Under the pieces are notes generated by a model. That model did no database searches, had not been told where the DNA came from, and saw only the letters and a list, made by a program, of their open reading frames with translations. A DNA stretch of 44,937 nt. Source: Candidatus Rokuibacteriota bacterium. Lineage in GTDB: Bacteria; Methylomirabilota; Methylomirabilia; Rokubacteriales; CSP1-6. Numbering within the stretch: position 1 is the first letter of the stretch; the number at the start of each line of letters is the position of its first letter. The DNA lies in contig JBBIIW010000003.1 in NCBI GenBank assembly GCA_037446305.1, positions 1 through 44,937 on the forward strand, in the 5' to 3' direction. Below, piece after piece: positions 633 through 29,074 of the stretch. A program made the position numbers and the translations under genes.

Positions 633-1130
633 CCGAGGACTTCGAGTACATCTCCCGCGCCCGCCTGGAGTTCCGCCATGGGTACCGGCACGCCTACATG
701 GAGGAGGTCCCCCAACCCGTGGTCTACGGCATGAAGGGCGGCCTGCGCGAGTATTACGGCCGCTTCGACGCGCCGCCGCTCCCCGCCACGCTGGACCACA
801 TCGTGGCTGCGGTGGCCGGTTGAATGTACGGCACGCTGGCCGGCGCCCTGGCAGGGCGCAAGATCGAGTTCGACCGGTCGTCGTATACCGCCACCGTCGA
901 GGGCCGGATCGCCGGCCGCGGCAAGACGATTGCGATCCAGTCGATCGTCATGCACTACGAGCTGGCCGTCGCCCCCCGACGCCCTCGACGCCACGCGCCG
1001 GGCGCTGGCAGCCCATCCGCAAGGGTGCCCCGCCCACGAGAGCGTCAAGAGCGCCATCGCGATCAGCTGGGATGCCCAGGTGCGGGCGGGCGACCAGGTG
1101 ATCTCGCTCAAGAGCGAGCCCTCGGCGTAG
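629..1130 (+). CDS. OsmC/Ohr-family peroxiredoxin-like protein and candidate selenoprotein. It has an in-frame TGA at 821-823 at the first conserved Cys position, and needs a 1-nt frame correction in the C6 run at 972-977.
   Basis: ORFs 629..823 and 824..1198 share one frame and are separated only by TGA: ...LDHIVAAVAG-TGA-MYGTLAGALAGRKIEF. This matches the OsmC ..LA.C....L.. motif. The C-terminal part (PDALDATRRALAAHPQGCPAHESVKSAI) is in frame 0 and carries the second conserved Cys (CP.). A GGAGGAG RBS precedes the ATG at 629. Confidence 0.6.
843..859 (+). other. Hairpin GCGCCC-tggca-GGGCGC starting 19 nt after the OsmC TGA. Candidate bacterial SECIS upper stem-loop.
   Basis: Perfect 6-bp stem with a 5-nt loop containing GG, read directly from the sequence. 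GC-rich DNA forms many such hairpins, so this is weak evidence on its own. Confidence 0.35.
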
Positions 1131-4455: not shown

Positions 4456-6153
4456 TCAGCCCTCGACGGCGTGCGGGGGCCGTCCCGGCGAGGCGTCCCG
4501 GGCCACGGCCGCCACCTCGGCGCCGGCCAGGAAGGTCCGCAGCTCCTCGTCGGTGTGGCGGGCGAAGAACTGCCGGAGATTCTCGCCGTGGCGGCGCCGG
4601 GCGAGGTATTCGGAGAGCAGGCGCTCGATGGCGGCGGCCACCTCCGTGGCGGGCACGCGGTAGCCGATCGGCCGGGCCGGGCCCGCCTGCCGGCCCACGG
4701 CGCCGCCCAGGCAGAAGTAGTAGGCGTCCACCATCCGGCCGTCCACCTTCAGCTTCTTGCCCTCGATGCCGATGTCGGCGATCCAGTGCTGGCCGCAGCT
4801 GTTGGGGCAGCCGGTGACGTGGATCTTCAGCGGCTGATCGAACCCCGGCAGCCGGCGCTGCAGGTCCTCCACCAGCGCGCGGGCGAAGTCCTTGGTCTCG
4901 GTCAGGGCCAGCTTGCAGAACTGGGTGCCCGTGCAGGCGATGGCCCCGCGCCAGAACGGCGAGGCCTCGAGCGACAGTCCCGCCGCCTCGAGCTCGCGGG
5001 CCAGGGCCGCCGCCTGCGTCCGCCGCACGTTGGGGATCAGCAGGTTCTGCATGATGGTGGTCCGGACCTCGCCGGTGCCGTGGCGGTCCGCGAGGTCGGC
5101 GACGACGCGCAGGTCGCCGGCTCGCAGACGTCCGCGCAGCACGGCCAGCCCGGCATAGACGTAGCCGTCCTGCTTCTGGGCGTGCAGGCCCACGTGGTCC
5201 CGGTAGATGTCGTCGGGCGGCTCCTCGGGCACTCCGGGCGGCAGCGGCGAGCCCAGGCGCTGCTCCAGCGCCTGCTGGAAGCGGACCGCCGTCCAGCCGT
5301 GCTGCAGGAAGAGGAACTTCAGGCGCGCCTTCTCGCGGTCCTGCCGGAGCCCCTCGCTGTCCCGGAAGATCTCGGAGATGCCGCGCAGCACCGGCAGGAC
5401 CTGCACCCAGGGCACGAAGGCGTCGAGCCGGACGGCCAGGTGCGGCGCGGTGGACAGCCCGCCGCCCACCCGGACGGCAAAACCCACCTCGCCGGTCTCC
5501 GGGTGCCGGAGGGCGGTGAGGCCCACGTCGTTGATCTCGGGATACGAGCACCAGACCCGGCAGCCGGTGATCGTGATCTTGTACTTGCGCGGCAGGTTGT
5601 AGAACTCCGGGTTGCCGTTCAGCATCCGCGTCGCCGCCAGCACCAGCGGCGAGGCGTCCACGACCTCGTCGGCGTCCAGGCCGGCCAGCGGGCAGCCGGT
5701 GATGTTCCGGGTGTCGTCGCCGCAGGCCCCCATGGTCGTCAGCCCGCAGCGCCAGAGCCGCTCGAAGACGTCGGGGATGGCCTCGATCGGGACCCAGTGG
5801 AGCTGCACGTTCTGGCGGACGGTGAGGTCGGCGACGCCCCGGCCGTGGCGCTCGGCCAGGTCCGCGATGGCGCGCAGCTGGTGCGAGAGGAGCAGCCCGT
5901 TCGGGATGCGGATGCGGACCATGAAGTACGGCAGCGCCTTGCCCTCGCCGCCCTGGCCGCCCACGACGCCGGCCCCATCGCCCTGGGTGTAGAGCCCCCA
6001 CCACCGGAAGTACGTCTTCAGCCACGGCTCGGGGATCGCCTGGTAGCCCTCCCGCGCGAAGCGCAGGATCTCCTGGTAGCCCTCCCAGGGGTTCAGCTCG
6101 CGCTTGAGGCGCTCGGCGCGCTGGGCCTTGGTCTCCCTGCCCGCCCCGCTCAC
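4456..6153 (-). CDS. sir: Ferredoxin-dependent assimilatory sulfite (or nitrite) reductase hemoprotein
   Basis: 565 aa with duplicated NIR_SIR domains. Siroheme/4Fe-4S ligand cluster CTGTQFC...VTGCPNSCGQH. N-terminus resembles actinobacterial SirA/NirA. Confidence 0.85.
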   Translation of the reverse strand: MSGAGRETKAQRAERLKRELNPWEGYQEILRFAREGYQAIPEPWLKTYFRWWGLYTQGDGAGVVGGQGGEGKALPYFMVRIRIPNGLLLSHQLRAIADLAERHGRGVADLTVRQNVQLHWVPIEAIPDVFERLWRCGLTTMGACGDDTRNITGCPLAGLDADEVVDASPLVLAATRMLNGNPEFYNLPRKYKITITGCRVWCSYPEINDVGLTALRHPETGEVGFAVRVGGGLSTAPHLAVRLDAFVPWVQVLPVLRGISEIFRDSEGLRQDREKARLKFLFLQHGWTAVRFQQALEQRLGSPLPPGVPEEPPDDIYRDHVGLHAQKQDGYVYAGLAVLRGRLRAGDLRVVADLADRHGTGEVRTTIMQNLLIPNVRRTQAAALARELEAAGLSLEASPFWRGAIACTGTQFCKLALTETKDFARALVEDLQRRLPGFDQPLKIHVTGCPNSCGQHWIADIGIEGKKLKVDGRMVDAYYFCLGGAVGRQAGPARPIGYRVPATEVAAAIERLLSEYLARRRHGENLRQFFARHTDEELRTFLAGAEVAAVARDASPGRPPHAVEG

Positions 6154-7248: not shown

Positions 7249-7686
7249 ATGAAGGGTGGGCTGAAGATCGGCGAGCTGGCCCGGCAGGCGGGGCTCACCG
7301 CGCGGGCCATCCGGTTCTACGAGCGCAAGCGTGTCCTGCCGCCGCCGCGACGCTCCGCGAGCGGATACCGGCTCTACGGCCCGGAGGCCGTCGAGATGCT
7401 GCGGTTCGTGAAGCAGGCGACCGGCCTGGGCCTGACACTGGCCGAGATCAGGGAGATCATCGCCATCCGCCGGGGTGGCCGCCCGCCGTGCGACCACGTC
7501 CACCAGCTGCTGCGGGCCAAGGCGGTCGAGCTGGATCGCAAGCTCGAGGACCTGGTCGCCCTCCGCCGCCGCATCCGGCAAAGTCTCGCCGCCTGGAGCC
7601 GAAGGCCGCGCGGGGCCGCCGCCGTCTGCCACCACATCGAGGGCCCGCACCGCGGCGGTGGCCTCCAGGGGCGGCGAGACGCCTGA
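7249..7686 (+). CDS. MerR-family metal-responsive transcriptional regulator
   Basis: N-terminal HTH LKIGELARQAGLTARAIRFYERKRVLPPPRRSASGYRLY. Dimerisation helix and a C-terminal Cys/His loop (PPCDHV ... AVCHHIEG). Its stop overlaps the ATPase ATG (TGATG). Confidence 0.85.
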   Translation: MKGGLKIGELARQAGLTARAIRFYERKRVLPPPRRSASGYRLYGPEAVEMLRFVKQATGLGLTLAEIREIIAIRRGGRPPCDHVHQLLRAKAVELDRKLEDLVALRRRIRQSLAAWSRRPRGAAAVCHHIEGPHRGGGLQGRRDA

Positions 7687-10121
7687 TGGCGGCCGGCAAG
7701 CTCCAGGTCAAGGTGGGCGGGATGGCCTGCTCCTTCTGCCTGGAGACGATCAGGAAGGGGCTCGGCCGGATCCCGGGGGTCAGCGAGGTCAACGTCAGCC
7801 TGGCCCACGAGGAGGCCTTGATCACCTACGACCCCGGCCGCGTCACGCCGGCGACGCTCACCGACACGCTCCGCAGCCTCGGCTATACCGTCCGGGATCC
7901 GAACAGGGTCCGCACCTTCGAGGAGGAGGAGGCCGAGCTGCGCCGGGAGCGGGAGCGCCTGATCGTCGCCGGAGCCCTGGCCTGGATCGGCCTCCTGTTC
8001 ATGCTGCTCATGTGGACCGGGCGCCACCATCCCCATGTCCACGGGATCATGGCCGGGCTCGCCGTCGCGATGGTGTTCGGGCTGGGGCTCCCCATCCTGC
8101 GCACGGCCTGGGCCTCGGTCCGCCGGCGGATCCTGAACCAGCACGTGCTGATGGAGGTGTCGGCCTTCAGCGGACTCGTGGGCGGGGTGATCGGTCTCGT
8201 GCGCCCCCAGATCTTCCCGAGTCACGAGTTCTTCGGGGTGGCGGTGTTCGTCACCGCCTACCACATCCTCGGCGGGTACGCCTCCCTGCTCGTGCGGACC
8301 CGGGCCTCGCAGGCGGTCAAGAAGCTGCTCTCGCTCCGGCCGCCGGCCGCGTGCGTCGTCCGCGACGGGGAAGCGCTCGAGGTGCCGGTCGCCGAGGTGC
8401 GGCGCGGGGACCTCGTCCGGATCCGCCCCGGTGAGCAGATCCCCGTCGACGGCGTGGTGGTGGAGGGCGCCTCGGCGGTCGACGAAAGCCTGGTCACCGG
8501 CGAGCCCCTGCCGCGCGAAAAGGTGCCCGGCCAGGAGGTCATCGGCGGCTCGGTCAACCGCCACGGCTCGCTGCTGGTGCGCGTCACGCGCGTGGGCGAG
8601 GAGAGCTTCCTCGAGCAGGTGGCGCGGCACATCCAGGAGGCGCGCGCGCTCAAACCAGGCCTCCTCCTGCTCCTGGACCGGATGCTCGAATACTTCGTCC
8701 CCGGCGTCCTCCTGGTCGGGCTGGCGGCCTTCACGCTCTGGACGCTGGGGGCCTGGGCCGTCCGGGGCGCCCCCGACTGGGAGCGGGCGGCGCTCGCCGC
8801 GCTGGCCGTGCTGGTCATGGGCTACCCGTGCGCGCTGGGGATGGCGACGCCGCTGGCCATGATCCGCGGGGGCGGCGAGGCCGCGCGCCAGGGCATCCTC
8901 ATGCGCAGCGCCGCCTCGTTCCAGGCCTTCAAGGACGTCTCGGTCGTCGTGCTCGACAAGACCGGGACGATCACCCGCGGCGAGCCCCGGGTGGTGGATG
9001 TCGTGCCGGCCGCCGGCGGGGAGGCCGACGACGTGCTGGCCCTCGCGGCCTCGGCCGAGCAGCTCTCGGAGCATCCCCTGGCCCGGGCGGTCGTCGAGGC
9101 GGCCCGGGCCAGGGGCCTTGCCCTGGAACCGGTTCACGACTTCGAGACGGTGGCGGGCAAGGGGGTGCGGGCCAGGGCCGGCGGCGAGGCGGTCCTGGTG
9201 GGGACGCTGCGGTTCCTCCGGGAGGCCGGGATCGACACCGGCCACCTCGAGACTCTGGCCGAGGCGCATGAAGCTCGCGCCCAGACGGTCATCGCGGTGG
9301 CGAGCGAGGGGCGGCCTGTCGGTCTCGTCACGCTGGCGGACACCATCAAGGCCGACGCGAAGGAGGCCATTGACCGGCTTCGCGCCGCTGGCCTGGCGCC
9401 GGTCATGATCACCGGGGACAATCCCCGAACCGCCCGGGCGGTGGCCGACCAGGTGGGCATCCAGGAGATCCGGGCCCAGGTACTGCCGCAGGACAAGGCC
9501 GCGCGCGTCCGGGAGCTGCAGCGGGCGGGCAAGCGGGTGGCGATGGTGGGAGACGGCATCAACGACGCGCCGGCCCTCACGCAGGCCGACGTGGGCCTCG
9601 CCATCGGAACCGGCACCGACATCGCGATCGAGTCGGCCGACGTGGTGCTGGTCGGGGAGCGGCTGAGCGCGGTGGTGGACGCCTACCGGAGCGCGCGGCG
9701 CACGTACGGCAAGACGGTCCAGAACCTCTCGCTGGCGTTCTCCTTCAACGGCATCGGGGTGCCCCTGGCGACCACCGGACTCGTCTCCCCCGTCTGGGCC
9801 ATGGCCGCCATGGCCGCCAGCGTGACGGCCGTGCTCCTGAACTCGTTCCTGGGCCGGCTGGTCCCGCCGCTCCGCCGGCCGAAGCCCACGGCCCGACAGG
9901 TGACGCTCTTCGTACCGAGCCTCCGCTGCCAGGGGTGCGTGAACACCCTCCGCGACGCGCTCGGGAAGCTGCCGATCGTGGTGGGGGTCGAGGGCGACCC
10001 CGTGAGCAAGCAGCTGGTGGTGACCGTGCGGGACGGCCAGGGGCGGGTGACGGCGGTGGAGGAGGAGATCACCCGGCTCGGCCACGTGGTGGGCGAGCAG
10101 GCGCGTGAGGTGCGTTCATGA
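7686..10121 (+). CDS. Heavy-metal translocating P1B-type ATPase with an N-terminal HMA domain (GMACSFC) and a C-terminal HMA-like domain (LRCQGC)
   Basis: DKTGT phosphorylation site, TGDN, GDGINDAP, TGEP actuator motif, and membrane motif VMGYPCALGMATP in place of the usual CPC. Confidence 0.9.
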   Translation: MAAGKLQVKVGGMACSFCLETIRKGLGRIPGVSEVNVSLAHEEALITYDPGRVTPATLTDTLRSLGYTVRDPNRVRTFEEEEAELRRERERLIVAGALAWIGLLFMLLMWTGRHHPHVHGIMAGLAVAMVFGLGLPILRTAWASVRRRILNQHVLMEVSAFSGLVGGVIGLVRPQIFPSHEFFGVAVFVTAYHILGGYASLLVRTRASQAVKKLLSLRPPAACVVRDGEALEVPVAEVRRGDLVRIRPGEQIPVDGVVVEGASAVDESLVTGEPLPREKVPGQEVIGGSVNRHGSLLVRVTRVGEESFLEQVARHIQEARALKPGLLLLLDRMLEYFVPGVLLVGLAAFTLWTLGAWAVRGAPDWERAALAALAVLVMGYPCALGMATPLAMIRGGGEAARQGILMRSAASFQAFKDVSVVVLDKTGTITRGEPRVVDVVPAAGGEADDVLALAASAEQLSEHPLARAVVEAARARGLALEPVHDFETVAGKGVRARAGGEAVLVGTLRFLREAGIDTGHLETLAEAHEARAQTVIAVASEGRPVGLVTLADTIKADAKEAIDRLRAAGLAPVMITGDNPRTARAVADQVGIQEIRAQVLPQDKAARVRELQRAGKRVAMVGDGINDAPALTQADVGLAIGTGTDIAIESADVVLVGERLSAVVDAYRSARRTYGKTVQNLSLAFSFNGIGVPLATTGLVSPVWAMAAMAASVTAVLLNSFLGRLVPPLRRPKPTARQVTLFVPSLRCQGCVNTLRDALGKLPIVVGVEGDPVSKQLVVTVRDGQGRVTAVEEEITRLGHVVGEQAREVRS

Positions 10122-10657
10122 GAACGTGGGTATGGACGGCGATCATCGTGGCCGCCCTGGCAACCGGGTACGTGGCCGGGTATGTCGTCAGGACCCCGGC
10201 CGGCGGCGGCATGGCGGTGGCCGGCGTGCCGGTCGCGCCGCCCGTGAAGGGCTACGCCGAAGGGCAAACGATTCACTTCCTCCACACCGAGGCGTCCGAT
10301 CCCGAGGTGGCGAAGATGTTGACGGACATGATGGGCGGCTCCCCGGTGCTGGTGGTCCCGGCCCTGGCAAAGGCTCCCGAGGTTCTCCTGGCGCCGGTCT
10401 ACGTCTTTACCAACGGGGTGAAGGGCGACGGCCCCTTCGGCTTCCAGCCCGACGTGTTCGATTCGCCACCGGGCACCGAGGGCTATCGGCCTCTGCGGAC
10501 GGTGCACCTCGTCCGATGGACGAACGAGGGCGCTGCGCGTGAGCTGAAGGCCGTGACGGAGGTGAAGGCGGCGGCGATGGCGGGCGACGTGACGATCGCG
10601 CAGTCCGGCATCGTCGTCAACATGCCGATGATGACGTGGCCGGGCGGCCGCCGCTGA
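10118..10657 (+). CDS. Membrane-anchored hypothetical protein, translationally coupled (ATGA) to the ATPase
   Basis: N-terminal TM helix WVWTAIIVAALATGYVAGYVV followed by a soluble domain. No family recognised with confidence. Confidence 0.6.
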   Translation: MRTWVWTAIIVAALATGYVAGYVVRTPAGGGMAVAGVPVAPPVKGYAEGQTIHFLHTEASDPEVAKMLTDMMGGSPVLVVPALAKAPEVLLAPVYVFTNGVKGDGPFGFQPDVFDSPPGTEGYRPLRTVHLVRWTNEGAARELKAVTEVKAAAMAGDVTIAQSGIVVNMPMMTWPGGRR

Positions 10658-10742: not shown

Positions 10743-11030
10743 ATGAACGCGGCGCGGCTCCTGGTCGAGATCCTCACCGCCCCCGGCTGAGGCAAGTGCG
10801 AGGAGGCCAGGCGGCTGGTCTTCAAGGCGATCGAGATGGCGAGGGGACGCTTCACCGACCTCGAGGTGCGGGAGTGGAACCTGGCCGAGCACCCCGAGCT
10901 CGGGCCCCGGTACGGCGTGATGGCGACGCCAGCCGTCGTGATCAATGGCCGGCTCGAGTTCCGCGGGGTGCCCAGGGAAGCGGCGCTGCTCGAGCGGCTC
11001 GAGGCCGCCCGAAGCAGGGCCGGCGGCTGA
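10743..11030 (+). CDS. Small thioredoxin-fold protein (redox-active disulfide protein 2 / Thioredoxin_3-like). In-frame TGA at 10788-10790 gives a U-G-K-C motif. Candidate selenoprotein.
   Basis: ATG 10743 is in frame with ORF 10836..11030. Read through the TGA: MNAARLLVEILTAPG-TGA-GKCEEARRLVFKAIE...YGVMATPAVVINGRLEFRGVP. The TGA sits at the first Cys of the family's PGCxxC motif. Confidence 0.65.
10802..10823 (+). other. Hairpin GGAGGCCAG-gcgg-CTGGTCTTC starting 11 nt after the TGA. Candidate bacterial SECIS.
   Basis: 9-bp stem (two G-U pairs) with a 4-nt G-rich loop. The 11-nt spacing from UGA matches the minimal E. coli fdhF SECIS geometry. Confidence 0.45.
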
Positions 11031-11033
11031 GCC

Positions 11034-11891
11034 ATGAGGGAGGCGCCGCGCCCCACCGGCCACGAGCCGGCCCCGGTTGCGGTGGCCGGGCCGCGGCGGC
11101 AGTCAGCGTCTGCGGTAACGCTCCTGGCCGCGCTCGGCGGCCTCGGGCTCCTGGCGCTCGTCGGGTGGGTGGCGTGGAACCAGGGAGTCCTGGTCGGTCT
11201 CCGGTGGGCGGCCTTCGAGGCGCCGCTCGCGCTCGCCGCCTTCGGCTTCATCGCCGGGGTCGGCGCGTTCTTCGCGCCGTGCGCGTTCGCGCTGTTTCCC
11301 GGCTCCATCTCGTACTCCCTGACGTCGGTCGGCCCCGGACGCGAGAGCGTCGGGCACGCGCTGGCCCTCGGCGCCAGCTGCGCCGGCGGGAGCGCACTCT
11401 TCTTCGCGCTGACCGGCCTGGCGATCACGCTCGTCGGTGGATCGATCGCGCCGTACCTGATCGCCACCAAGCCGGCGATCGCACTCGCCGTGGTGCTCCT
11501 CGGCCTGGTGCTGGTCGCCGACGTGCGCCTGCCGTCGGTCGGCGGGCCGATCGGCCGCATCGGGGCCGGACTCCCGCCCGCGGCCGGCCTCGTCCTCTAC
11601 GGGTTCGGCTACGCGCTGGCCTCCACGGGCTGCACGCTCCCCATCTACGTCTCGATCGTCGTGCTGCCGCTGACGAGCGGCTTCGCCGGGGCAGCGCTGC
11701 TCACCTTCGCCAGCTTCGCGTCGGCGATGGCCCTGATGATGCTCCTCACGAGCCTCCTGGTGGGGCTCGCCAGGGCGAGCCGGCTTCGCCGGCTCCAGGC
11801 CTCGACGGTCTGGATCAAGCGGGCGAGCGGGGCGATCCTGATCGCGGCGGGACTCTACCTCGGCTACTACTACGTCGCAGCGGGGATGTGA
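11034..11891 (+). CDS. ccdA: CcdA/DsbD-family transmembrane thiol:disulfide electron transporter
   Basis: Multi-TM protein with the two membrane-embedded Cys motifs FFAPCAFALFP and STGCTLP. It starts 3 nt after the thioredoxin-like gene. Confidence 0.8.
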   Translation: MREAPRPTGHEPAPVAVAGPRRQSASAVTLLAALGGLGLLALVGWVAWNQGVLVGLRWAAFEAPLALAAFGFIAGVGAFFAPCAFALFPGSISYSLTSVGPGRESVGHALALGASCAGGSALFFALTGLAITLVGGSIAPYLIATKPAIALAVVLLGLVLVADVRLPSVGGPIGRIGAGLPPAAGLVLYGFGYALASTGCTLPIYVSIVVLPLTSGFAGAALLTFASFASAMALMMLLTSLLVGLARASRLRRLQASTVWIKRASGAILIAAGLYLGYYYVAAGM

Positions 11892-11910
11892 CGTGACGGA
11901 GGGAGGATTC

Positions 11911-12243
11911 ATGCGACCTCTTCATCTGGCGCTCGCGCTGACGATCACCGTGGCCGCCTGGCTCGTGCCCCACCTGGCGGACGCCGGTCTGAAGGTCGTG
12001 ACGATCGACGTGCGGGGCATGGTGTGCCGGGGCTGACCGGCCACCATCGCCACAGCCTTGGAGAGGCTGCCGGGCGTGAAGCGCGCGGCGGTGGTGCTGG
12101 AGACGAGACAGGCCCGAGTGACGTACGACGACAAGAAGCAGACACCGGAGAAGCTCGCCGCGGCCATCGATATGCTGGGCTTCAAGGCATCGGTCCGTTC
12201 GGTCGCCGGGGCGCCGGCGGCGGAGGCGCCGGCCGGTCGTTGA
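11911..12243 (+). CDS. Secreted MerP-like heavy-metal-associated (HMA) protein. In-frame TGA at 12034-12036 gives GMVC-R-G-U. Candidate selenoprotein.
   Basis: ATG 11911 has a GGAGGGAGG RBS and is in frame with ORF 12058..12243. Signal peptide MRPLHLALALTITVAAWLVPHLADA, then LKVVTIDVRGMVCRG-TGA-PATIATALERLPGVKRAAVVLE. The TGA replaces the second Cys of GMxCxxC. Confidence 0.65.
12053..12069 (+). other. Hairpin CAGCCT-tggag-AGGCTG starting 16 nt after the TGA. Candidate bacterial SECIS.
   Basis: Perfect 6-bp stem with a 5-nt loop containing GG. Confidence 0.4.
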
Positions 12244-12285
12244 GGCATGGCGAGCGTCACGCTTTCGGTTTCGGGGAGGACGGGC

Positions 12286-13635
12286 ATGGAACGCGGGTAT
12301 GACCTGGTCGTGGTGGGAACGGGCGTGGCGTCGGCCGTCGCCTCCCGGTGCCGGGAGGCGGGCTGGACGGTGGCGGTCGTCGACTCGCGCCCCTTCGGCG
12401 GCACCTGCGCGCTGCGAGGCTGCAACCCCAAGAAGATGCTCGTGAGCGCGGCGGAGGCCATCCATGCCGCCTCCCGCCTGGCCGGCAAGGGCGTGCGCGC
12501 CGACGGCCTGACGATCGACTGGCCGGCGCTCGTGCGCTTCAAGCGAACGGCGACCGACCCGGTGCCCGCGCGGACCGAGCAGACATGGGCGCAGGCCGGG
12601 GTGGAGATGTTCCACGGCCGGGCCCGCTTCGTCGGACCCACGACGCTGGCCGTGGGAGATGATCGCCTCACCGGCACCCGTGTGCTGATCGCCGCCGGCG
12701 CCATGCCCCGACGGCTGCCGTTCGCCGGGGCCGAGCTGCTGACGACGAGCGAGCAGTTCCTGGAGCTGGACGCGCTCCCGACCCGGCTGCTGTTCGTGGG
12801 CGGCGGATACATCTCCTTCGAGTTCGCCCACGTGGCCGCCCGCGCCGGGGCGGAGGTGACGATTCTCCACCGGGGGGACCGGGCCCTGGAGGGGTTCGAC
12901 CCCGACCTGGTGGACCTGCTGGTCAGGCGGACCCGGGAGCTCGGCGTCCGGGTCGAGCTGGCCACGGAGGTGCGGGGCGTCGAGCGGAGCGACGGCGGTC
13001 TGATCGTCCGGGCGCTGGCGGGGGGTCGCGAGCGCCGCTTCGAGGCCGACCTGGCGATCCACGGGGCCGGACGCGCCCCGGAGATCGATGACCTCGACCT
13101 CGAGGCGGCGGGGGTGAAGCGCGAACGGCGGGGCGTCACCGTGAACGACTTCCTGCAGAGCGTGTCCAACCCGGCGGTGTACGCAGCCGGCGACGCCGCG
13201 GCCAGCGGGGGCCCGCCGCTGACCCCCAAGGCCGCCCACGACGCCGAGGTGGTGGCCTGGAACCTCCTGCACGGCAACCAGCGCCGGCCGAACTACGAGG
13301 GCCTGGCCTCCGTCGTGTTCACCGTGCCGCCGCTGGCCTCGGCGGGCCTGGGGGAGGCCGCGGCCCGGGCCCGGGGCCTCCGATTCCGCGTCCGCTGGCA
13401 GGAGACCTCGCAGTGGTTCAGCGCCCGACGCCTGGCCGAGACGGGCGCCGGCTTCAAGGTGCTGGTCGAGGAGGGCAGCGGCCGCATCCTCGGCGCGCAC
13501 CTGTTCGGGCCCCACGCCGACGAGGTCATCAACACCTTTGCCGTCGCCATCCGGGCCGGCATCCCGGCCGACGAGCTCCGGCAGGCCCTGTTCGCCTACC
13601 CGACCAGCAGCGCGGACATCCCCTTCATGCTCTGA
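12286..13635 (+). CDS. Class I pyridine nucleotide-disulfide oxidoreductase (glutathione reductase / MerA-core-like flavoprotein)
   Basis: YDLVVVGTGVAS FAD motif, redox-active GGTCALRGCNPKK, a second Rossmann motif LLFVGGGYISFEFA, and AAGD. C-terminal motif AYPTSSAD in place of HPTSSE. The ATG at 12286 with a GGGGAGGA RBS is preferred over 12247. Confidence 0.85.
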   Translation: MERGYDLVVVGTGVASAVASRCREAGWTVAVVDSRPFGGTCALRGCNPKKMLVSAAEAIHAASRLAGKGVRADGLTIDWPALVRFKRTATDPVPARTEQTWAQAGVEMFHGRARFVGPTTLAVGDDRLTGTRVLIAAGAMPRRLPFAGAELLTTSEQFLELDALPTRLLFVGGGYISFEFAHVAARAGAEVTILHRGDRALEGFDPDLVDLLVRRTRELGVRVELATEVRGVERSDGGLIVRALAGGRERRFEADLAIHGAGRAPEIDDLDLEAAGVKRERRGVTVNDFLQSVSNPAVYAAGDAAASGGPPLTPKAAHDAEVVAWNLLHGNQRRPNYEGLASVVFTVPPLASAGLGEAAARARGLRFRVRWQETSQWFSARRLAETGAGFKVLVEEGSGRILGAHLFGPHADEVINTFAVAIRAGIPADELRQALFAYPTSSADIPFML

Positions 13636-22378: not shown

Positions 22379-22453
22379 AGGCAGGGGCGCGCCAGCTGTC
22401 GCGACGACCGCGGCGGTCGCGCCGACCCAGGGGGGGCCCTCCTCGCAGCGCGA

Positions 22454-22481
22454 AAACCCTCTGCCGGTCGGCGGCGAATAC
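22454..22481 (+). promoter_or_regulatory. ECF-type promoter candidate P3: AAACCC-N15-CGAATAC
   Basis: Exact copy of the motif, ending 9 nt before the ATG at 22490 of the TolC-like gene. This implies a leaderless or very short-leader mRNA. Confidence 0.6.
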
Positions 22482-22489
22482 GTGTTGGG

Positions 22490-23884
22490 ATGTGGGGGCC
22501 TGTCGTCCAAGCGGCGAGAGTGGCGGTCCTGCTTGCCGGTCTGGGACTCCTGGGCGCCGCCGGCCCCGGGCTCGCACAGCCCCCGGAACCGGAGAAGCTG
22601 ACTCTCGACGAGGTCGTCGATCTCGCGCTGGCGAGGAACGCCGCGGTGCGAGCGGCCGCGCGCGAGGTCGAGGCTGCGGCCAAAGCCCACGCGGCCTCCC
22701 GCGGCCGCCTGTGGCCGTTCGCCGACATCTTCGGCGACTGGCAGTACTCGGGCCCCGACGAGGAGAACAAGACCCGGCTGCTCGCCAATATCGGCCGCAT
22801 GCCGAAACTCGGACCAACGCTGAGCGACAACCAGCCCATCGGCGGCATCCCGCGCCGGGAATTCGACCACAACCTCTACGCGGTTGGGGTCCGGGTCACC
22901 TACCCTCTCTACGTCGGGGGTCGGATCGTCGCCGAGATTGAAGCCAACCGCCTCTTGACCCTGCTTGCGAGAGAGCGGGCGACGCAGACCGTGGACGAGC
23001 TGATCTTCAACCTCAGCAGCACCTTCTACAGCATCCTGCGGCTCCAGGAGAACGCCAGGGCCACCGAGGCCAGCGTCCGGGCTCTCCAGGAGGCCCAGAA
23101 GAACATCCGCGCGCTGGTCGAAGTGGGGCGGCTCCCGCGGGCCGATCTCTTCAAGGTGAACACCCGTCTGGCGGCCGTCCGCCAGGAGCTGATCAAGGTG
23201 CGGAACGAGGTGGAGCTCGCGCACGCCGTCCTCAAGACGCTCATGGGGCTCGAGGTCACGGAGCCGCTGGGCGTAAAGGGGGCGCTGGGCAGCGAGCCCG
23301 TGGCCGTCGACCTGCCACTCGACCTCAGCGAGGCCGAACGGCGCCGGCCCGAGCTGCAGGCGGCGCGCCGTGCGGTCGAGGTCCAGGCGCAGCGCGTCCG
23401 GATCGCCCGGGGGGCCCGGCTTCCCCGGGTGGACGCGAGGGCCCAGTACGCGGGGGGAGCCGGGGAGTCGGATTTCGGGAAGCCGCTGGGTGACTTCGTC
23501 GTCGGCGTGAACATCTCGATCCCGATCTTCACCGGTGGCCAGCTCCAGGCCCGGATCGCCGAGGAGGAGGCCCGGCTGGCCCGCGCTCGGGAGGCGTTGG
23601 AGAAGGCGCGGCTCGACGTGCAGCTGGACGTGCAGACCGCCCACCTCGCCCTCGTCGAATCGAGCGAGCGGATCAGGGCGGCACAGGTGGCCCTGGAGGA
23701 CGCGCGCGAGGCGCTGCGGGTGGAGCAGCTCAAAACCCAGGTCGGCCGAGGCATCGTCGAGGACCTGCTCGACGCCCAGGCGGCGGAGCTCCAGGCGCAG
23801 ACCAACTACACGCGCGCGCTCGCCGACTACAACACGGCGTTGGTGGCAAGGCGGAAGGCGATCGGGCGCGTCCGGGAGCCGTAG
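22490..23884 (+). CDS. TolC-family outer-membrane efflux protein
   Basis: Signal peptide, then LTLDEVVDLALARNAAVRAA and two OEP repeats with typical coiled-coil segments. Confidence 0.85.
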   Translation: MWGPVVQAARVAVLLAGLGLLGAAGPGLAQPPEPEKLTLDEVVDLALARNAAVRAAAREVEAAAKAHAASRGRLWPFADIFGDWQYSGPDEENKTRLLANIGRMPKLGPTLSDNQPIGGIPRREFDHNLYAVGVRVTYPLYVGGRIVAEIEANRLLTLLARERATQTVDELIFNLSSTFYSILRLQENARATEASVRALQEAQKNIRALVEVGRLPRADLFKVNTRLAAVRQELIKVRNEVELAHAVLKTLMGLEVTEPLGVKGALGSEPVAVDLPLDLSEAERRRPELQAARRAVEVQAQRVRIARGARLPRVDARAQYAGGAGESDFGKPLGDFVVGVNISIPIFTGGQLQARIAEEEARLARAREALEKARLDVQLDVQTAHLALVESSERIRAAQVALEDAREALRVEQLKTQVGRGIVEDLLDAQAAELQAQTNYTRALADYNTALVARRKAIGRVREP

Positions 23885-23902
23885 CCAGGAGGGCGGAGGG
23901 CG

Positions 23903-25453
23903 ATGATGGCGCGGATCAGGAGCTGGGTGAACGGCGGTGTGGGACAGGCGGTGAGCCGCTTCCGCGATCGCCGCGCCGGCTGGTTGGGTCGCCACGCCGC
24001 GGCCGTCCAGAAGACGATCGTCACCGCCGTCATCCTCCTTGCCCTCTACTGGGCCGTCACGGCGATCGTCGCGTACATCACCGCGCCGCGGCTGGAGATG
24101 ACCATGAGCCCGGTCGTGGGCCGCATCGCCGTCGTCGCCCAGCCGGCCACCCGCGTGCCCATCGCCCGGAAGGTCACGTACACGGGCAGCGTCGCGTCGT
24201 TCCAGGATGTGACTGTCTATCCCCGCCATGAGGGCTGGGTGAAGGACTTTCAGCTGTACGAAGGCGACCACGTGACGCGGGGGCAGGTGATTGCGCGGCT
24301 GGACACCGCCGAACTCGAGCGCGCGGTCCAGCAGGGGCGGGCGCTGGTCACCCAGGCCGAGGGCGAGGTGCGGGAGGCGGAGGCGCGGCTCGCGGCGGCG
24401 AACGTCGGCGTTCTCAAGGCGGCCGAAGAACGGGCGCAGGCGGAGGCGGCGCTCAAGGAGGCCGAGGCGTTGCTGGCGGTCGCGCGGGCGAATCTTGAGG
24501 CGGCCCGTCCCGGGGTGGTCGAGGCTCGAGCCCAGGCGGAGTATGTCGAGGGGGAGTTCAGGCGCGACGAAACCCTCGTGGCGGGCGGCGCGATCAGCCA
24601 GGCCTCTTTCGACCAGCGACGTGCGCAGTTCGTCAGCGCCCGCGAGCGCATAGCCCAAGCCGAGGCGCGCGTCGTCGAAATGCAGGCTCAAGTCGCCTCG
24701 GCGGAGGCCAAGATCGTCAGCGCACGCGCGGCCATCCGGCGTGCGGTCGCCAGCCAGCAGGCCGCGGTGAGCCACGTTCGCCACGCCGAGGCGGGAGTCG
24801 CTGCGGCCAGAGCCAGGCTCGCCGCGGCCCGGGAGGAGCACGAGCGGCGCCAGGTCGTGCTCGGGTACACCACGATCGAGGCCCCGATCACGGGGCGGGT
24901 GGCCAAGCGCCACATCTACGCCGGCATCCTGGTGAAGCCAGGGATGCCGATCGTGGACCTCCAGGACCTGAGCCGGGTTCGTGTGCAGGCGAAAGTAGCC
25001 GAGCGCGACCTTCCCTTCGTGCGGGTCGGCACGACGGAGGCCATCGTCCGCTTCCCGACCCTGCCCGAAGGGCAGCGGGAACGCCGGGCCCGGGTCACAA
25101 CGGTGTTTCCTCAGCTCGATCCGGTGAGCCGGACGGCCACCGTGGAGATCCTGCTCGACAACCCGGGCGAGCTGATCAAGCCGGAGATGTACGCGGTCGT
25201 GGACCTGGTCCTGGAGCGGAAGGAGAAGGCGATTGTCATCCCGCGCCAGGCGGTCCTCGACGGGCCGGACGGCAAGCCGATCGTGTACGTCACCGACGCG
25301 GTCACCGCCATGTCGCGACCCGTGACGCTCGGGATCGCGGAGGGCGAGCGGGTCGAGGTCCTGGATGGGGTCAAGGAGGGCGAGATGATCGTCGCCCGGG
25401 GTCAGCGGAACCTCTCGGAGGGGGCGCAGGTCCAGGTCGTGGGCGGGCTGTGA
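23903..25453 (+). CDS. Efflux periplasmic adaptor (MFP/HlyD family) with an unusually long alpha-helical hairpin
   Basis: N-terminal TM helix, lipoyl-like halves (GWVKDFQLYEGDHVTRGQVIARLD ... IEAPITGRVAKRHIYAGILVKPGMPIVDL), an intervening Ala/Glu/Arg-rich helical region, and beta-barrel plus MP domains. Confidence 0.85.
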   Translation: MMARIRSWVNGGVGQAVSRFRDRRAGWLGRHAAAVQKTIVTAVILLALYWAVTAIVAYITAPRLEMTMSPVVGRIAVVAQPATRVPIARKVTYTGSVASFQDVTVYPRHEGWVKDFQLYEGDHVTRGQVIARLDTAELERAVQQGRALVTQAEGEVREAEARLAAANVGVLKAAEERAQAEAALKEAEALLAVARANLEAARPGVVEARAQAEYVEGEFRRDETLVAGGAISQASFDQRRAQFVSARERIAQAEARVVEMQAQVASAEAKIVSARAAIRRAVASQQAAVSHVRHAEAGVAAARARLAAAREEHERRQVVLGYTTIEAPITGRVAKRHIYAGILVKPGMPIVDLQDLSRVRVQAKVAERDLPFVRVGTTEAIVRFPTLPEGQRERRARVTTVFPQLDPVSRTATVEILLDNPGELIKPEMYAVVDLVLERKEKAIVIPRQAVLDGPDGKPIVYVTDAVTAMSRPVTLGIAEGERVEVLDGVKEGEMIVARGQRNLSEGAQVQVVGGL

Positions 25454-25486
25454 GGCTGGCGCACATCGGCTGAAGGAGCGCCGCGC

Positions 25487-28400: not shown

Positions 28401-29074
28401 TGCTCGCCACCGTCATGGTGATGGCGACCGGCATCCTCCTGGTCGAGAAGATCACCCAGCTCGAGGCGGCGGGGCTGGACCGCCGGCGCGCGGTGCTCAC
28501 CGCCTCCCCCATCCGGCTGCGGCCGGTGCTCATGACGACGCTGACCACGGCGTCCGCCTTCATCCCGCCCATGTTCGCGCCCCCGACCGGGATGGACCGC
28601 TTCCGGCCGATCGCGACGGCGATCGTGGGCGCACTGATCAGCTCGACGGCCCTCGGGCTCATCACGGTGCCGGTCATCTACACGGTCCTGGACGACCTGC
28701 GGCAGTTCCTCCGGAAGGTGTACGCGGGCCTCCCGTTCGCGCGGAGGGTCAGCGGCGAGGAGTTCGTGCGCAAGCTCCCCGCCCTCCCGACGGAGGTCCT
28801 GTGGGAGCTCCGCCACGTGGACCAGTACAAGCCGGGCGTCTTCGGGTTCGATACGAGCGTCATCCCTCGGATCCTCGAGGAGCGGGAGCGGGCGCGAAAG
28901 GCGCGGGAGGCGCGGGAGGAGGAGGTGATCGAGGTCGAGGAGCTGCCCCTCCCGGCGCTGGCCGGCGGCGCCGGCGACGGTGCGCCTCACACCCAGGACC
29001 CGATCCGGGGCGTCAGTCCCCGGGCGGCGGGGGACGGCGAGAACCAACCACCGGAACGGCCGTCACACGGGTAA
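25487..29074 (+). CDS. RND-superfamily efflux permease (AcrB/CzcA-like) with a charged C-terminal extension
   Basis: 1195 aa with 12-TM topology and two large periplasmic loops. TM4 motif VIGRLVDDSVIMMEVIDRH. Confidence 0.9.
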   Translation: MLKAIPKFAVEHPMVMIPIYLAMIGVGVVMYRHLPLELQPYLENPTVGIVITYPGVSAEDMEYYFARPIEKKMGVLGGVTFIRSNSQEGRTEVVIGFEYGSDMNQHKLDVQTLLTNMLNELPFDKDNTTNPWVVHVANDNVPILDLNVTHSEWDDVRLREFLDNIVRERLESVPGVQSIMPYGGKRRLMLVEVDRDRLAAYQLGLMEVKTAIEQQHLSRAAGKLRSREWDILVRADAILRDPRDLGGIPIGTFKDRVVYLRDVATVKDSFAEVTSSYHFNGRRGILLTLIKQPQVGDKEPIEGVLARMDEFVREYPGLRYEIAYNRLNFLERIIANAWHEMFLAFTITSIVVLAFLNQIRPTFIVLVTLPAAVSAGFIWWRPFGFTVNTPTLMALTFVIGRLVDDSVIMMEVIDRHLRMGKPPKQAAIEGAQEVSGAMVAIGATAWLAMGPALFLGGTMGTGFQGMTAPMIFANLMSTFFTLTLDPTLRAYLLRPRTKETMTITDYLDRGVEVLMRPAQWLFGRAEWLQLNVLNWALDYRVVVLAVGAASLYAGYKIWPTLGWEGMPLQDTGQAVGEVETWPGASFEETEKIVSKIEEHLLKNPEVKLVSTQIGMEPGLGTAPNFTYFSGYGVRTVNKAFFKITLTDTDERTCQFYHRWADGFAPLRPLVQPCAERSGRTIWTILDTTQAQILAHVPGIRSLWFMEMGATPVNTARAPVEAIIKGDDIAVLDQLGKQALEVGNRTPGLVQPFTSWSMTMPQYRLEIDRVRAKELGLAVPQIAMQAFYALQGGFTSEFFKPEEGYRHTRFLIRYKPEQRRTLEDLEQVKLTTPTGKVVPLKEVARVVPRNGVDWVYKEDLQYALTVLAQYREVGLKMATAGLIMGIKTSVPLPKRYTVQPKGMMLDMLDNLYRLYNGMYLAIGILFILLLLQTRSMVSTLAILVDAPLEWMGAIYLLWLRGFNWSPPVVWGMMLATVMVMATGILLVEKITQLEAAGLDRRRAVLTASPIRLRPVLMTTLTTASAFIPPMFAPPTGMDRFRPIATAIVGALISSTALGLITVPVIYTVLDDLRQFLRKVYAGLPFARRVSGEEFVRKLPALPTEVLWELRHVDQYKPGVFGFDTSVIPRILEERERARKAREAREEEVIEVEELPLPALAGGAGDGAPHTQDPIRGVSPRAAGDGENQPPERPSHG

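What the first reader, a model, noticed from the sequence alone, without database searches (positions are those of the whole stretch)
11911..12243. Periplasmic MerP-like HMA protein with a CxxU metal-binding motif
The ATG at 11911 has a strong RBS and encodes a typical Sec-pathway signal peptide ending ADA, followed by the beta1-loop of an HMA fold. The second Cys of GMxCxxC is a TGA (12034-12036) in the same frame as the downstream ORF 12058..12243. A perfect 6-bp hairpin with a GG-containing loop follows 16 nt later (12053-12069). Without read-through, neither half is a plausible protein.
Basis: partly seen in the sequence, partly recalled or inferred. Interest (0 to 1): 0.78.

Follow-up and report, generated by a model that had tools for sequence, protein, structure and literature searches.

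The report
Exported selenocysteine (CxxU) metal-binding HMA protein
The apparent stop codon in this small gene almost certainly encodes selenocysteine, giving an exported metal-binding protein with a sulfur-selenium metal site; related proteins are known, but databases cut all 70 close relatives of this subfamily short as fragments.

Summary
Window 11911-12243 encodes a 110-residue protein: signal peptide, then a full-length HMA domain whose GMxCxxC motif reads GMVCRG-UGA.

- **Conserved TGA.** It sits in the same column in the window and 14 distinct orthologues (56-89% identity). The two residues before it vary, and no TGC/TGT occurs among them.
- **Invariant hairpin.** The hairpin 16 nt downstream (12053-12069, loop GGA) is identical in all 18 TGA-bearing sequences, even at synonymous sites (rare UUG-Leu, AGG-Arg; Fisher p = 4e-4).
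- **Cys-form control.** The one Cys-form orthologue found (TGC, same gene order) has lost the hairpin.
- **Not a reassigned code.** TGA is the normal stop for 18 of 24 window genes.
- **Second selenoprotein gene.** Two genes upstream lies a thioredoxin-like UxxC gene (10743-11030), with a CcdA-like membrane protein between them.

Conserved neighbours (P1B-ATPase, YtkA/CtaK, and Sco1 in one locus) favour periplasmic copper handling, with Hg(II) as the alternative. HMA-type selenoproteins are already catalogued (NF041115 UxxU; a "MerP" entry; an ATPase UxxC form). This protein fails both curated cut-offs, is exported, and occurs as CxxU, UxxC and UxxU forms. I rate it a new variant of a known kind and moderately interesting.

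The parts
11898..11907 (+). Ribosome-binding site GGAGGGAGGA, 3-8 nt before the ATG
   Evidence: Read directly from the sequence
11911..12243 (+). Complete selenoprotein gene: 110 codons including one UGA-Sec, terminated by TGA at 12241-12243
   Evidence: Full-length Pfam HMA match. TGA conserved in 15 distinct sequences.
11911..11985 (+). Sec-type signal peptide (25 aa, predicted cleavage ADA|G)
   Evidence: A-x-A at -3/-1 in 10 of the 11 sequences tabulated (V-x-A in the other), 1-3 basic residues, hydrophobic core. Judged by inspection only; SignalP was not available.
12025..12036 (+). Metal-binding motif Cys39-Arg-Gly-Sec42 (TGC CGG GGC TGA)
   Evidence: Cys codon is TGC/TGT in 15/15 and the Sec position is TGA in 15/15, while the xx residues vary.
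12034..12036 (+). UGA selenocysteine codon
   Evidence: The Cys-form orthologue L052 has TGC at this position.
12053..12069 (+). SECIS upper stem-loop CAGCCUU-GGA-GAGGCUG; the loop (12060-12062) starts 26 nt after the U of UGA
   Evidence: paired in 18/18; no synonymous variation in codons ACA GCC TTG GAR AGG CTG. Fisher p = 4.2e-4; lost in the TGC orthologue (-2.9 vs -9.5 kcal/mol).
10743..11030 (+). Second selenoprotein gene: cytoplasmic thioredoxin-fold protein with motif TAPG-U-GKC (UxxC); UGA at 10788-10790
   Evidence: TGA kept in 9 aligned orthologues plus L052.
10802..10823 (+). SECIS-like hairpin of the thioredoxin-like gene (9 bp, loop GCGG starting 23 nt after the U of UGA)
   Evidence: 89.9% paired against 21-56% for slid controls; pair 17:34 is A-U in 5 and C-G in 4 sequences; covariation score reached by 1 of 500 shuffles.
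11034..11891 (+). CcdA/DsbD_TM-like membrane protein with three invariant Cys (C83 APCAFALFPG, C116, C200 TGCTLPIYV)
   Evidence: Lies immediately upstream of the HMA gene in 14 of the 15 related loci with upstream DNA.
12247..13635 (+). Pyridine-nucleotide disulfide oxidoreductase (CALRGC active site; no NmerA domain and no C-terminal Cys pair). Lineage-specific neighbour.
   Evidence: Follows the HMA gene only in the window, L014 and L017.
10118..10657 (+). DUF7482 protein, a recurrent neighbour
   Evidence: also present in L017, L019, L052
7488..10121 (+). P1B-type heavy-metal ATPase (start codon uncertain) with an N-terminal CxxC HMA domain, a YPC motif in TM4 and a C-terminal CQGC HMA-like tail
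   Evidence: TIGR01511 Cu subfamily: 461.7 bits against a cut-off of 397.

Best explanation
Shown by sequence comparison: window 11911-12243 is one intact gene for an exported HMA-fold protein whose metal-binding motif is Cys-x-x-Sec. The UGA at 12034 is recoded locally as selenocysteine, directed by the hairpin at 12053-12069, a bacterial-type SECIS within the coding sequence that presumably acts through SelB and tRNA-Sec. After Sec-pathway export and cleavage at ADA|G, the mature protein of about 85 residues would sit in the periplasm of a diderm bacterium of the Rokubacteria/Methylomirabilota type.

Inferred from conserved gene order (about 0.5 for copper specifically): the thiolate-selenolate pair binds a soft metal ion, most likely Cu(I) delivered by the adjacent P1B-ATPase and shared with YtkA/CtaK-type periplasmic copper proteins.

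Also inferred: the Cys-Sec pair would oxidise readily to a selenylsulfide in the periplasm. It would be kept reduced by a dedicated relay made of the cytoplasmic thioredoxin-like selenoprotein (UxxC, 10743-11030) and the CcdA-like membrane protein (11034-11891). In this lineage the relay may be fed by the neighbouring NAD(P)H-dependent disulfide oxidoreductase (12247-13635).
For: 1. Full-length HMA match, with MerP and ATP7B/CopA HMA domains as the best PDB relatives.
2. TGA is in the same column in 15 distinct sequences (56-89% aa identity). The flanking xx residues vary (RG, QA, KA, QS, PS, SS, PF, QF, SG) and no TGC/TGT occurs.
3. The 48 nt upstream of the TGA vary about twice as often at third codon positions (345/295/632), so the upstream half is translated in this frame.
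4. The hairpin is paired in 18/18 sequences. Its codons show no synonymous variation, although they include UUG-Leu and AGG-Arg in genomes with about 90% GC3. All 13 comparable invariant residues outside the hairpin do vary (Fisher p = 4.2e-4).
5. The loop starts with GG, matching the bacterial SECIS consensus of G at loop position 1 or 2 (PMC13582414).
6. Natural control: the Cys-form orthologue P0140/L052 (58% identity, same synteny) has TGC. Its hairpin codons have relaxed to GCG GCG CTG GAG AAG CTT and the hairpin is lost.
7. Close relatives carry UxxC (L021, L022) and UxxU (L023) with the same hairpin, so Cys and Sec interchange at both ligand positions.
8. TGA is the ordinary stop in 18 of 24 window genes, including this one.
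9. Sec use in these organisms: a second recoded gene lies in the same operon with hairpin covariation. A UGSC-family gene with an in-frame TGA lies on L001. A Methylomirabilota genome is reported to have 63 predicted selenoproteins (PMC13188914).
10. Synteny Trx(U) - YtkA - CcdA-like - HMA(U), often with a P1B-ATPase, holds across about 15 loci. YtkA/CtaK is implicated in CuA assembly (PMC13344008). L052 adds a CopY/BlaI-family regulator, TlpA-like redoxins and Sco1.
11. The CcdA-like protein keeps both membrane Cys motifs.
Against: - There is no direct evidence of selenium in the protein.
- No selA/B/C/D genes or tRNA-Sec occur in the window or in the fetched loci, so Sec competence of the source genome is inferred.
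- The HMA hairpin is invariant, so it gives no covariation, and a proposed lower stem is not supported.
- Whole-region folding energies are not better than shuffles in this 73% GC sequence (z about -1).
- Metal specificity and the reductive relay rest on gene order alone.
- The adjacent ATPase has YPC instead of the canonical CPC.
- A MerA-like oxidoreductase is adjacent and a true MerA lies 31 kb away, which keeps mercury in play.
Confidence: 0.8

Rival explanations
1. Same selenoprotein, but a mercury system. The exported CxxU protein acts like MerP and captures Hg(II). It passes Hg(II) to the Cys pairs of the DsbD_TM-like membrane protein, which acts as a MerT/MerC-like importer. The adjacent flavoprotein then reduces it.
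For: MerP structures are the best single-domain PDB matches (1osd E 1.5e-13, 1afi E 9e-12). The MerP model aligns across the signal peptide and the domain (64.8 bits). The neighbouring oxidoreductase scores 277.8 bits on the MerA model. A canonical MerA lies at 43082-44749. Selenolate has very high affinity for Hg (general chemistry). Published Sec-containing MerT-like and 'MerP' entries exist.
Against: The adjacent oxidoreductase lacks both MerA hallmarks, the NmerA domain and the C-terminal Cys pair. It scores far below the MerA cut-off of 454 and accompanies the HMA gene in only 3 loci. The conserved partners are copper-type: Cu-subfamily P1B-ATPase, YtkA/CtaK, cupredoxin and Sco1. No merR or merT lies nearby. 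The MerP cut-off is not met.
Confidence: 0.2
2. The HMA-fold CxxU protein is mainly a redox protein and not a metal carrier. It would be the periplasmic end-acceptor of the Trx(UxxC)/CcdA relay, reducing disulfides or Cu(II) during cuproprotein assembly. Thioredoxin-fold proteins such as TlpA, ResA or CcmG normally do this job.
For: The conserved core contains no periplasmic thioredoxin-fold partner, so the HMA protein is the only adjacent exported protein with a Cys/Sec pair. Both flanking partners belong to a thiol-disulfide relay. Most Sec-for-Cys replacements occur in redox-active motifs (PMC9312934).
Against: No HMA-fold protein is known to work as an oxidoreductase (my knowledge). The motif GMxCxxC/U is the canonical metal site. 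L052 carries separate TlpA-like redoxins and Sco1 nearby. This reading is not exclusive of metal binding.
Confidence: 0.15
3. The UGA is recoded with the help of the hairpin, but as cysteine. A tRNA-ReC (selC*)-type tRNA would do this, so the protein would carry an ordinary CxxC site.
For: SECIS-dependent UGA-to-Cys decoding by tRNA-ReC is documented and is enriched in genomes with UxxU motifs (PMC13582414). This family includes a UxxU member (L023).
Against: If Cys were the product, TGC would do the same without the recoding machinery, yet only 1 of 19 sequences with this position covered uses TGC there. Known selenoprotein families (UGSC) occur on the same contigs. The phylum is reported to be selenoprotein-rich.
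Confidence: 0.06
4. The gene is a pseudogene, a sequencing or assembly error, or two independent small ORFs (41 aa and 61 aa).
For: Gene callers split it this way in every database entry.
Against: The same TGA appears in 15 independently assembled, diverged sequences with an intact frame, a coding-type substitution pattern on both sides, and a constrained hairpin. Neither half can form an HMA fold alone.
Confidence: 0.01

Closest known systems
NCBIfam NF041115 'UxxU_metal_bind' metal-binding (seleno)protein, listed as 'putative mercuric reductase' from the Olavius symbiont study of Zhang & Gladyshev 2007 (review PMC13188914)
   Same: A single HMA domain with selenocysteine in the GMxCxxC metal site. 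It is the best-scoring NCBIfam model for the window protein.
   Different: The window protein scores 67.8-69 bits against a cut-off of 95. Even the UxxU and UxxC relatives reach only 75-77 bits. The motif here is CxxU with one Sec, not UxxU with two. This protein has a signal peptide, whereas the NF041115 model is only 74 positions long (one HMA domain). The operon partners (Trx(U), CcdA-like) are not described for NF041115.
MerP, the periplasmic Hg(II)-binding protein of mer operons (TIGR02052; PDB 1afi, 1osd)
   Same: A Sec-exported single HMA domain of about 70 residues with the metal site at the beta1-alpha1 loop. It is the best single-domain structural relative. A 'MerP' selenoprotein entry already appears in the GOS list (PMC2398784).
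   Different: The score is 64.8 bits against a cut-off of 92.55. There is no merT, merR or adjacent true merA. The conserved neighbours are copper-type. Sec replaces the second Cys.
CopZ/Atx1-type copper chaperones and the HMA domains of Cu-ATPases (CopA, ATP7A/B)
   Same: The same fold and motif, and the likely metal, Cu(I). The window protein is adjacent to a P1B-ATPase that has its own CxxC HMA domain.
   Different: Those proteins are cytoplasmic and use only Cys. This one is exported and has Cys/Sec. The CopZ models score 52.8-57.5 bits against cut-offs of 91-95.
Cation-transporting ATPase selenoproteins with a UxxC HMA motif, and the MerT/CopZ fusion selenoprotein NF045683
   Same: Selenocysteine in or next to an HMA metal site in metal-transport proteins.
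   Different: In those the Sec lies in a domain of a large membrane protein. Here the protein is a free exported domain. It scores 33.8 bits against a cut-off of 375 for NF045683.
CcdA/DsbD-thioredoxin reducing pathways (thioredoxin to CcdA to ResA/CcmG/TlpA)
   Same: A cytoplasmic thioredoxin-fold donor sits next to a CcdA-like membrane protein with two membrane-embedded Cys motifs and an exported Cys-pair protein.
   Different: The donor is a selenoprotein (UxxC). The presumed acceptor has an HMA fold and not a thioredoxin fold. The CcdA-like protein matches Pfam DsbD_TM only weakly (20.1 bits against a cut-off of 27.1).
Group 4 [NiFeSe] hydrogenases with CxxU, UxxC and UxxU variants of one metal-binding CxxC motif (PMC13582414)
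   Same: The same three-way interchange of Cys and Sec at a metal-ligand CxxC, a single conserved downstream SECIS, and occurrence in Methylomirabilota.
   Different: A different protein family and a different metal centre.

Membership tests
Bacterial SECIS-dependent selenoprotein | In-frame UGA conserved among orthologues, with protein conservation on both sides | tested here: met
   TGA in 15/15 distinct CxxU sequences. The core shows 56-89% aa identity. Third-position bias holds upstream of the TGA.
Bacterial SECIS-dependent selenoprotein | Stem-loop shortly downstream of the UGA with G at loop position 1 or 2 | tested here: met
   The 7-bp stem with GGA loop at 12053-12069 is paired in 18/18 sequences, frozen at synonymous sites (p = 4e-4), and absent in the TGC orthologue. 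The consensus is as stated in PMC13582414. bSECISearch itself was not run.
Bacterial SECIS-dependent selenoprotein | Cys-containing homologues align at the Sec position | tested here: met
   P0140/L052 has TGC-Cys. The UxxC relatives L021 and L022 have Cys there. All HMA profiles have Cys at this column.
Bacterial SECIS-dependent selenoprotein | The genome encodes selA, selB, selC (tRNA-Sec) and selD | not testable with these tools
   None found in the 45-kb window or in the fetched loci. Indirect support comes from the second recoded gene, the UGSC gene with a TGA and the literature on Methylomirabilota.
Bacterial SECIS-dependent selenoprotein | Selenium is present in the polypeptide | not testable with these tools
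   Needs mass spectrometry or 75Se labelling.
HMA domain (Pfam PF00403) | Profile match above the gathering score over the whole domain | tested here: met
   54 bits against 24.8, model positions 1-62 of 62.
HMA domain (Pfam PF00403) | Beta-alpha-beta-beta-alpha-beta fold with the metal site at the beta1-alpha1 junction | not tested
The fold is inferred from gap-free alignments to solved HMA domains.
MerP (TIGR02052) | Score at or above the curated equivalog cut-off (92.55 bits) | tested here: not met
   64.8 bits full length, 61.3 bits for the mature part.
MerP (TIGR02052) | Signal peptide and periplasmic location | tested here: met
   By inspection: basic n-region, hydrophobic core, and A-x-A conserved in 10 of the 11 sequences tabulated. 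No dedicated predictor was available.
MerP (TIGR02052) | Encoded in a mer operon with merT/merA/merR | tested here: not met
   The neighbours are Trx-like, CcdA-like, DUF7482 and a P1B-ATPase. The adjacent flavoprotein lacks the MerA hallmarks.
NF041115 UxxU metal-binding (seleno)protein | Score at or above the curated cut-off (95 bits) | tested here: not met
   67.8-69 bits for the window protein and 75-77 bits for its UxxU and UxxC relatives.
NF041115 UxxU metal-binding (seleno)protein | UxxU motif (two Sec residues) | tested here: not met
   The window has CxxU. Only L023 among the relatives has UxxU.
CopZ copper chaperone (NF033794 / NF033795) | Score at or above the cut-off (95 / 91 bits); cytoplasmic, with no signal peptide | tested here: not met
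   57.5 and 52.8 bits. A signal peptide is present.

The most novel reading that the evidence does not exclude
The operon is a selenium-based transmembrane reducing relay that ends on an HMA-fold protein. Electrons would flow from NAD(P)H through a flavoprotein to a cytoplasmic UxxC thioredoxin-like selenoprotein. They would then pass through a CcdA-like membrane protein to a periplasmic CxxU HMA protein. That protein would use its thiol-selenol pair both to hold Cu(I) and to act as a reductant during cuproprotein (CuA-type) assembly. This would be the first CcdA/DsbD pathway with a non-thioredoxin-fold acceptor and with selenocysteine at both ends.
Probability: 0.25. Interest if true: 0.65.

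Novelty: new variant of a known kind. Interest (0 to 1): 0.5.

Why it matters
**Annotation.** All 70 close homologues in a 5.8-billion-protein collection, including NCBI entries, are truncated fragments of 57-124 residues annotated as 'copper chaperone CopZ' or 'heavy-metal-associated domain-containing protein'. The metal site of a whole family is therefore missing from databases. The same is true of its thioredoxin-like partner.

**Metal chemistry.** The family offers a natural series at one metal site (CxxC, CxxU, UxxC, UxxU) in closely related proteins. This is a clean system for asking what selenium contributes to soft-metal binding, selectivity and resistance to oxidation in the periplasm.

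**Recoding.** The Sec forms and the single Cys-form orthologue show a SECIS being maintained by synonymous-site selection and dissolving once Sec is lost. The UxxU member raises the open question of how one hairpin serves two UGA codons 9 nt apart.

**Physiology.** Two selenoproteins flank a CcdA-like protein next to copper-handling genes. This suggests that selenium is built into envelope copper homeostasis in Rokubacteria/Methylomirabilota, a widespread uncultured soil and groundwater group.

Tried and rejected
- **Exact look-up of the window's CcdA-like protein:** not on record, so the source contig and organism could not be named. Taxonomy is inferred from the nearest relatives.
- **tRNA scans:** nothing in the window or in 19 related loci.
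- **Rfam scan of the window:** no match.
- **Folding energy against shuffles:** uninformative at 73% GC, with z between -1.1 and 0. I relied on comparative evidence instead.
- **Extended lower stem for the HMA SECIS:** tested twice and not supported. The first attempt used wrongly set columns. The second gave 72% pairing and no covariation.
- **Window-wide scan for other in-frame TGAs with coding signal on both sides:** it found only 12034 plus three ordinary gene boundaries. It misses the Trx TGA, which is only 15 codons from its start.
- **Literature:** Haft & Tolstoy 2025 and Deng et al. 2026 are not held, so I could not check whether they already list this family. The deep-Sep paper does not mention HMA. 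No held paper combines 'heavy-metal-associated', 'selenoprotein' and 'CxxU' in this sense.
- **MerA identity of the adjacent flavoprotein:** considered and rejected, because it has no NmerA domain and no C-terminal Cys pair.
- **Genetic-code reassignment of UGA:** rejected, because TGA ends 18 of 24 window genes.

Full report
**1. The observation.** The sequence is as described.
- A strong ribosome-binding site (GGAGGGAGGA, 11898-11907) precedes the ATG at 11911.
- The first 25 codons look like a Sec-type signal peptide ending ADA.
- The next residues (GLKVVTIDVRGMVCRG) are strand beta1 and the metal-binding loop of an HMA domain.
- The codon where the second Cys of GMxCxxC belongs is TGA (12034-12036). 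The frame stays open to a TGA stop at 12241-12243.
- With U replaced by C, the 110-residue product matches Pfam HMA over the whole model (positions 1-62 of 62, E 2e-14).
- It aligns without gaps to solved HMA domains, with MerP (1osd, 1afi) the best single-domain matches.
- The hairpin CAGCCUU-GGA-GAGGCUG lies at 12053-12069, 16 nt after the TGA.

**2. Is the TGA real and conserved?** A search of 5.8 billion proteins returned 70 close homologues. All were fragments starting just after this position: 61-aa 'LERLPGVKR...' proteins or 123-aa two-domain versions, several labelled Candidatus Rokubacteria. I fetched the DNA around them and scanned species-representative genomes.
- This gave 14 further distinct orthologues, mostly from Rokuibacteriota/Methylomirabilota genomes, plus two contigs of one genome labelled Binatia.
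- In all 15 sequences (56-89% amino-acid identity) the codon is TGA. The first Cys is TGC or TGT, and the two residues between them vary freely.
- Upstream of the TGA, substitutions fall about twice as often on third codon positions (345/295/632). GC3 is 0.97 upstream and 0.91 downstream. Both halves are therefore translated in one frame.
- TGA is the ordinary terminator for 18 of 24 genes in the window, including this one. The recoding must be local and not a change of genetic code.

**3. The hairpin behaves as a SECIS.**
- It is base-paired in all 18 TGA-bearing sequences. The only change is U.G to U-A in the closing pair.
- Because it is invariant there is no covariation, but the invariance is itself informative. 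The six codons spanning it (ACA GCC TTG GAR AGG CTG) include UUG-Leu and AGG-Arg in genomes with about 90% GC3.
- The four invariant 4- or 6-fold degenerate residues inside the hairpin show no synonymous change. All 13 comparable invariant residues elsewhere in the gene do vary. Fisher's exact p is 4.2e-4, or 1.2e-4 if Thr+6 is included.
- The loop begins GG, 26 nt after the U of UGA. The bacterial consensus is G at loop position 1 or 2 (PMC13582414).
- The decisive control came from an exhaustive HMMER search. The nearest full-length relative, P0140, is a Cys-form orthologue (58% identity, signal peptide, RGMVCSAC) in the same gene order.
- Its codon at this position is TGC. The hairpin codons have relaxed to GCG GCG CTG GAG AAG CTT, and the local hairpin is gone (-2.9 against -9.5 kcal/mol).
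- That genome's thioredoxin-like partner still carries its in-frame TGA, so the organism has not lost Sec decoding.

**4. A second selenoprotein gene and a family with three motif forms.**
- The thioredoxin-like ORF at 10836-11030 matched only the C-terminal half of its family.
- Reading upstream in frame shows ATG 10743, then MNAARLLVEILTAPG-TGA-GKCEE, which is a UxxC redox motif.
- Nine aligned orthologues plus L052 keep the TGA. One, from the Binatia-labelled genome, has CGA-Arg instead.
- Its hairpin (10802-10823, loop starting with G 23 nt after the U of UGA) is 89.9% paired, against 21-56% for slid controls. One pair switches between A-U (5 sequences) and C-G (4). The covariation score was reached by 1 of 500 shuffles.
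- Within the HMA family, L021 and L022 have GMV-U-SS-C and L023 has GMV-U-SS-U, all with the same hairpin.
- A UGSC-family gene with the signature in-frame TGA lies on the same contig as one orthologue.
- A recent review reports a Methylomirabilota genome with 63 predicted selenoproteins (PMC13188914).

**5. Context and likely function.**
- The conserved core across about 15 loci is Trx(U) - YtkA - CcdA/DsbD_TM-like - HMA(U). A P1B-ATPase and DUF7482 often sit upstream.
- The CcdA-like gene lies immediately upstream of the HMA gene in 14 of the 15 related loci with enough upstream DNA. It keeps three invariant Cys, including two CcdA-type membrane motifs.
- The Trx-like protein has no signal peptide. 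The HMA protein has one, with A-x-A in 10 of the 11 sequences tabulated.
- The window encodes outer-membrane proteins (PagL/OMP beta-barrel, OEP), so the organism is diderm and the HMA protein should be periplasmic.
- The YtkA domain is the CtaK family implicated in CuA assembly (PMC13344008). The ATPase passes the Cu-subfamily cut-off. L006 has a cupredoxin next door. L052 has a CopY/BlaI-family regulator, TlpA-like redoxins and Sco1.
- I therefore infer, but have not shown, a periplasmic Cu(I)-binding protein whose thiol-selenol pair is kept reduced by the Trx(U)/CcdA-like relay.
- The mercury alternative remains open. The MerP resemblance, the adjacent MerA-like flavoprotein and a canonical MerA at 43082-44749 support it. 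It is weaker because that flavoprotein lacks the NmerA domain and the C-terminal Cys pair and accompanies the HMA gene in only three loci.
- Decoding of the UGA as Cys by a tRNA-ReC cannot be excluded without the genome (PMC13582414).

**6. Comparison with what is known.** HMA-type selenoproteins are catalogued.
- The review also lists a MerT-like C/SxxU family and a cation-transporting ATPase with a UxxC motif. NCBIfam has the MerT/CopZ fusion selenoprotein model NF045683.
- The 2008 GOS study lists 'Mercuric transport protein MerP' among previously described selenoprotein families, with no motif given.
- The window protein fails the curated cut-offs of NF041115 (67.8-69 bits against 95), MerP (64.8 against 92.55) and CopZ (57.5 against 95).
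- It differs in the position of the Sec (CxxU), in being exported, and in its partners.
- I found no paper in the held library describing it.
- By the convention of PMC9312934 (same domain with a different Sec motif counts as a different subfamily), it is a new subfamily.

**7. Verdict.** This is a genuine, conserved and unannotated selenoprotein gene. Confidence that the gene encodes an exported HMA protein through SECIS-directed UGA recoding is about 0.8 to 0.9. Confidence that the metal is copper is about 0.5. The reducing relay is plausible but untested. Novelty: a new variant of a known kind. Interest: moderate (0.5).

Noticed in passing
It is a thioredoxin-fold protein with motif TAPG-U-GKC. 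The TGA is conserved in 9 aligned orthologues plus L052, and the hairpin shows an A-U/C-G compensatory pair.
   Followed up: yes
L021:2045, L022:6034, L023:1806 and 1815: Sister forms of the HMA protein carry UxxC (L021, L022) and UxxU (L023) with the same hairpin. In UxxU, one hairpin would have to serve two UGA codons 9 nt apart, with the loop 35 and 26 nt downstream. How that works is unexplained.
   Followed up: partly
L052:1907-2434 (TGC at 2030): A Cys-form orthologue in the same synteny has lost the hairpin, while its Trx-like neighbour keeps an in-frame TGA. This is a natural example of a SECIS decaying after Sec-to-Cys replacement in one gene of a two-selenoprotein operon.
   Followed up: yes
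L017:3368-3370: In the genome labelled Binatia, the Trx-like gene has CGA (Arg) where all the others have TGA (TAPG-R-DSC). This could be a Sec-to-Arg loss of the redox residue or an assembly error. The downstream hairpin still folds.
   Followed up: no
L008, L012, L013, L015, L016, L018 (and P0004, P0040, P0046, P0098): About half of the orthologues are two-domain proteins with a second, Cys-less HMA-like domain C-terminal to the CxxU domain. The window protein is the single-domain type.
   Followed up: no
L001:7327-7950 (- strand): A UGSC-family gene (a known selenoprotein family) has the in-frame TGA 'AVGD*GSCSS'. Gene callers split it into two ORFs of 95 and 81 aa.
   Followed up: partly
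window 7488-10121 (motif near 8817): The P1B-ATPase has GYPCALGMATP (YPC) in TM4 instead of the canonical CPC. L019's orthologue (75% identity) shares this. It also has a C-terminal HMA-like tail with CQGC. The metal specificity of a YPC-type pump is unclear to me.
   Followed up: partly
window 43082-44749: A canonical mercuric reductase MerA (NmerA GMTCDGC, active site GGTCVNVGCVPSK, C-terminal CC) lies 31 kb from the HMA(U) gene. No merR, merT or merP was seen immediately upstream.
   Followed up: partly
window 12247-13635: This flavoprotein disulfide oxidoreductase has a CALRGC active site and a C-terminal FAYPTSSADIPFML (Tyr where I recall glutathione reductase having His). It falls below every NCBIfam cut-off and is 78-82% identical to the genes that follow the HMA gene in L014 and L017. 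It may be a dedicated reductase for the Trx-like selenoprotein.
   Followed up: partly
window 22379-29074: A Cus-like RND efflux system (OEP, HlyD/CusB-like, AcrB/CusA-like) sits in a stretch with lower GC (0.66-0.69, against 0.72-0.74 elsewhere). This hints at horizontal acquisition of a metal-efflux module.
   Followed up: no
window 821-823, 4456-4458 (-), 25451-25453: Three other TGAs have coding signal on both sides in the same frame. They appear to be ordinary gene boundaries (stop followed at once by the next gene). The genes between 461 and 2389 were not annotated.
   Followed up: partly
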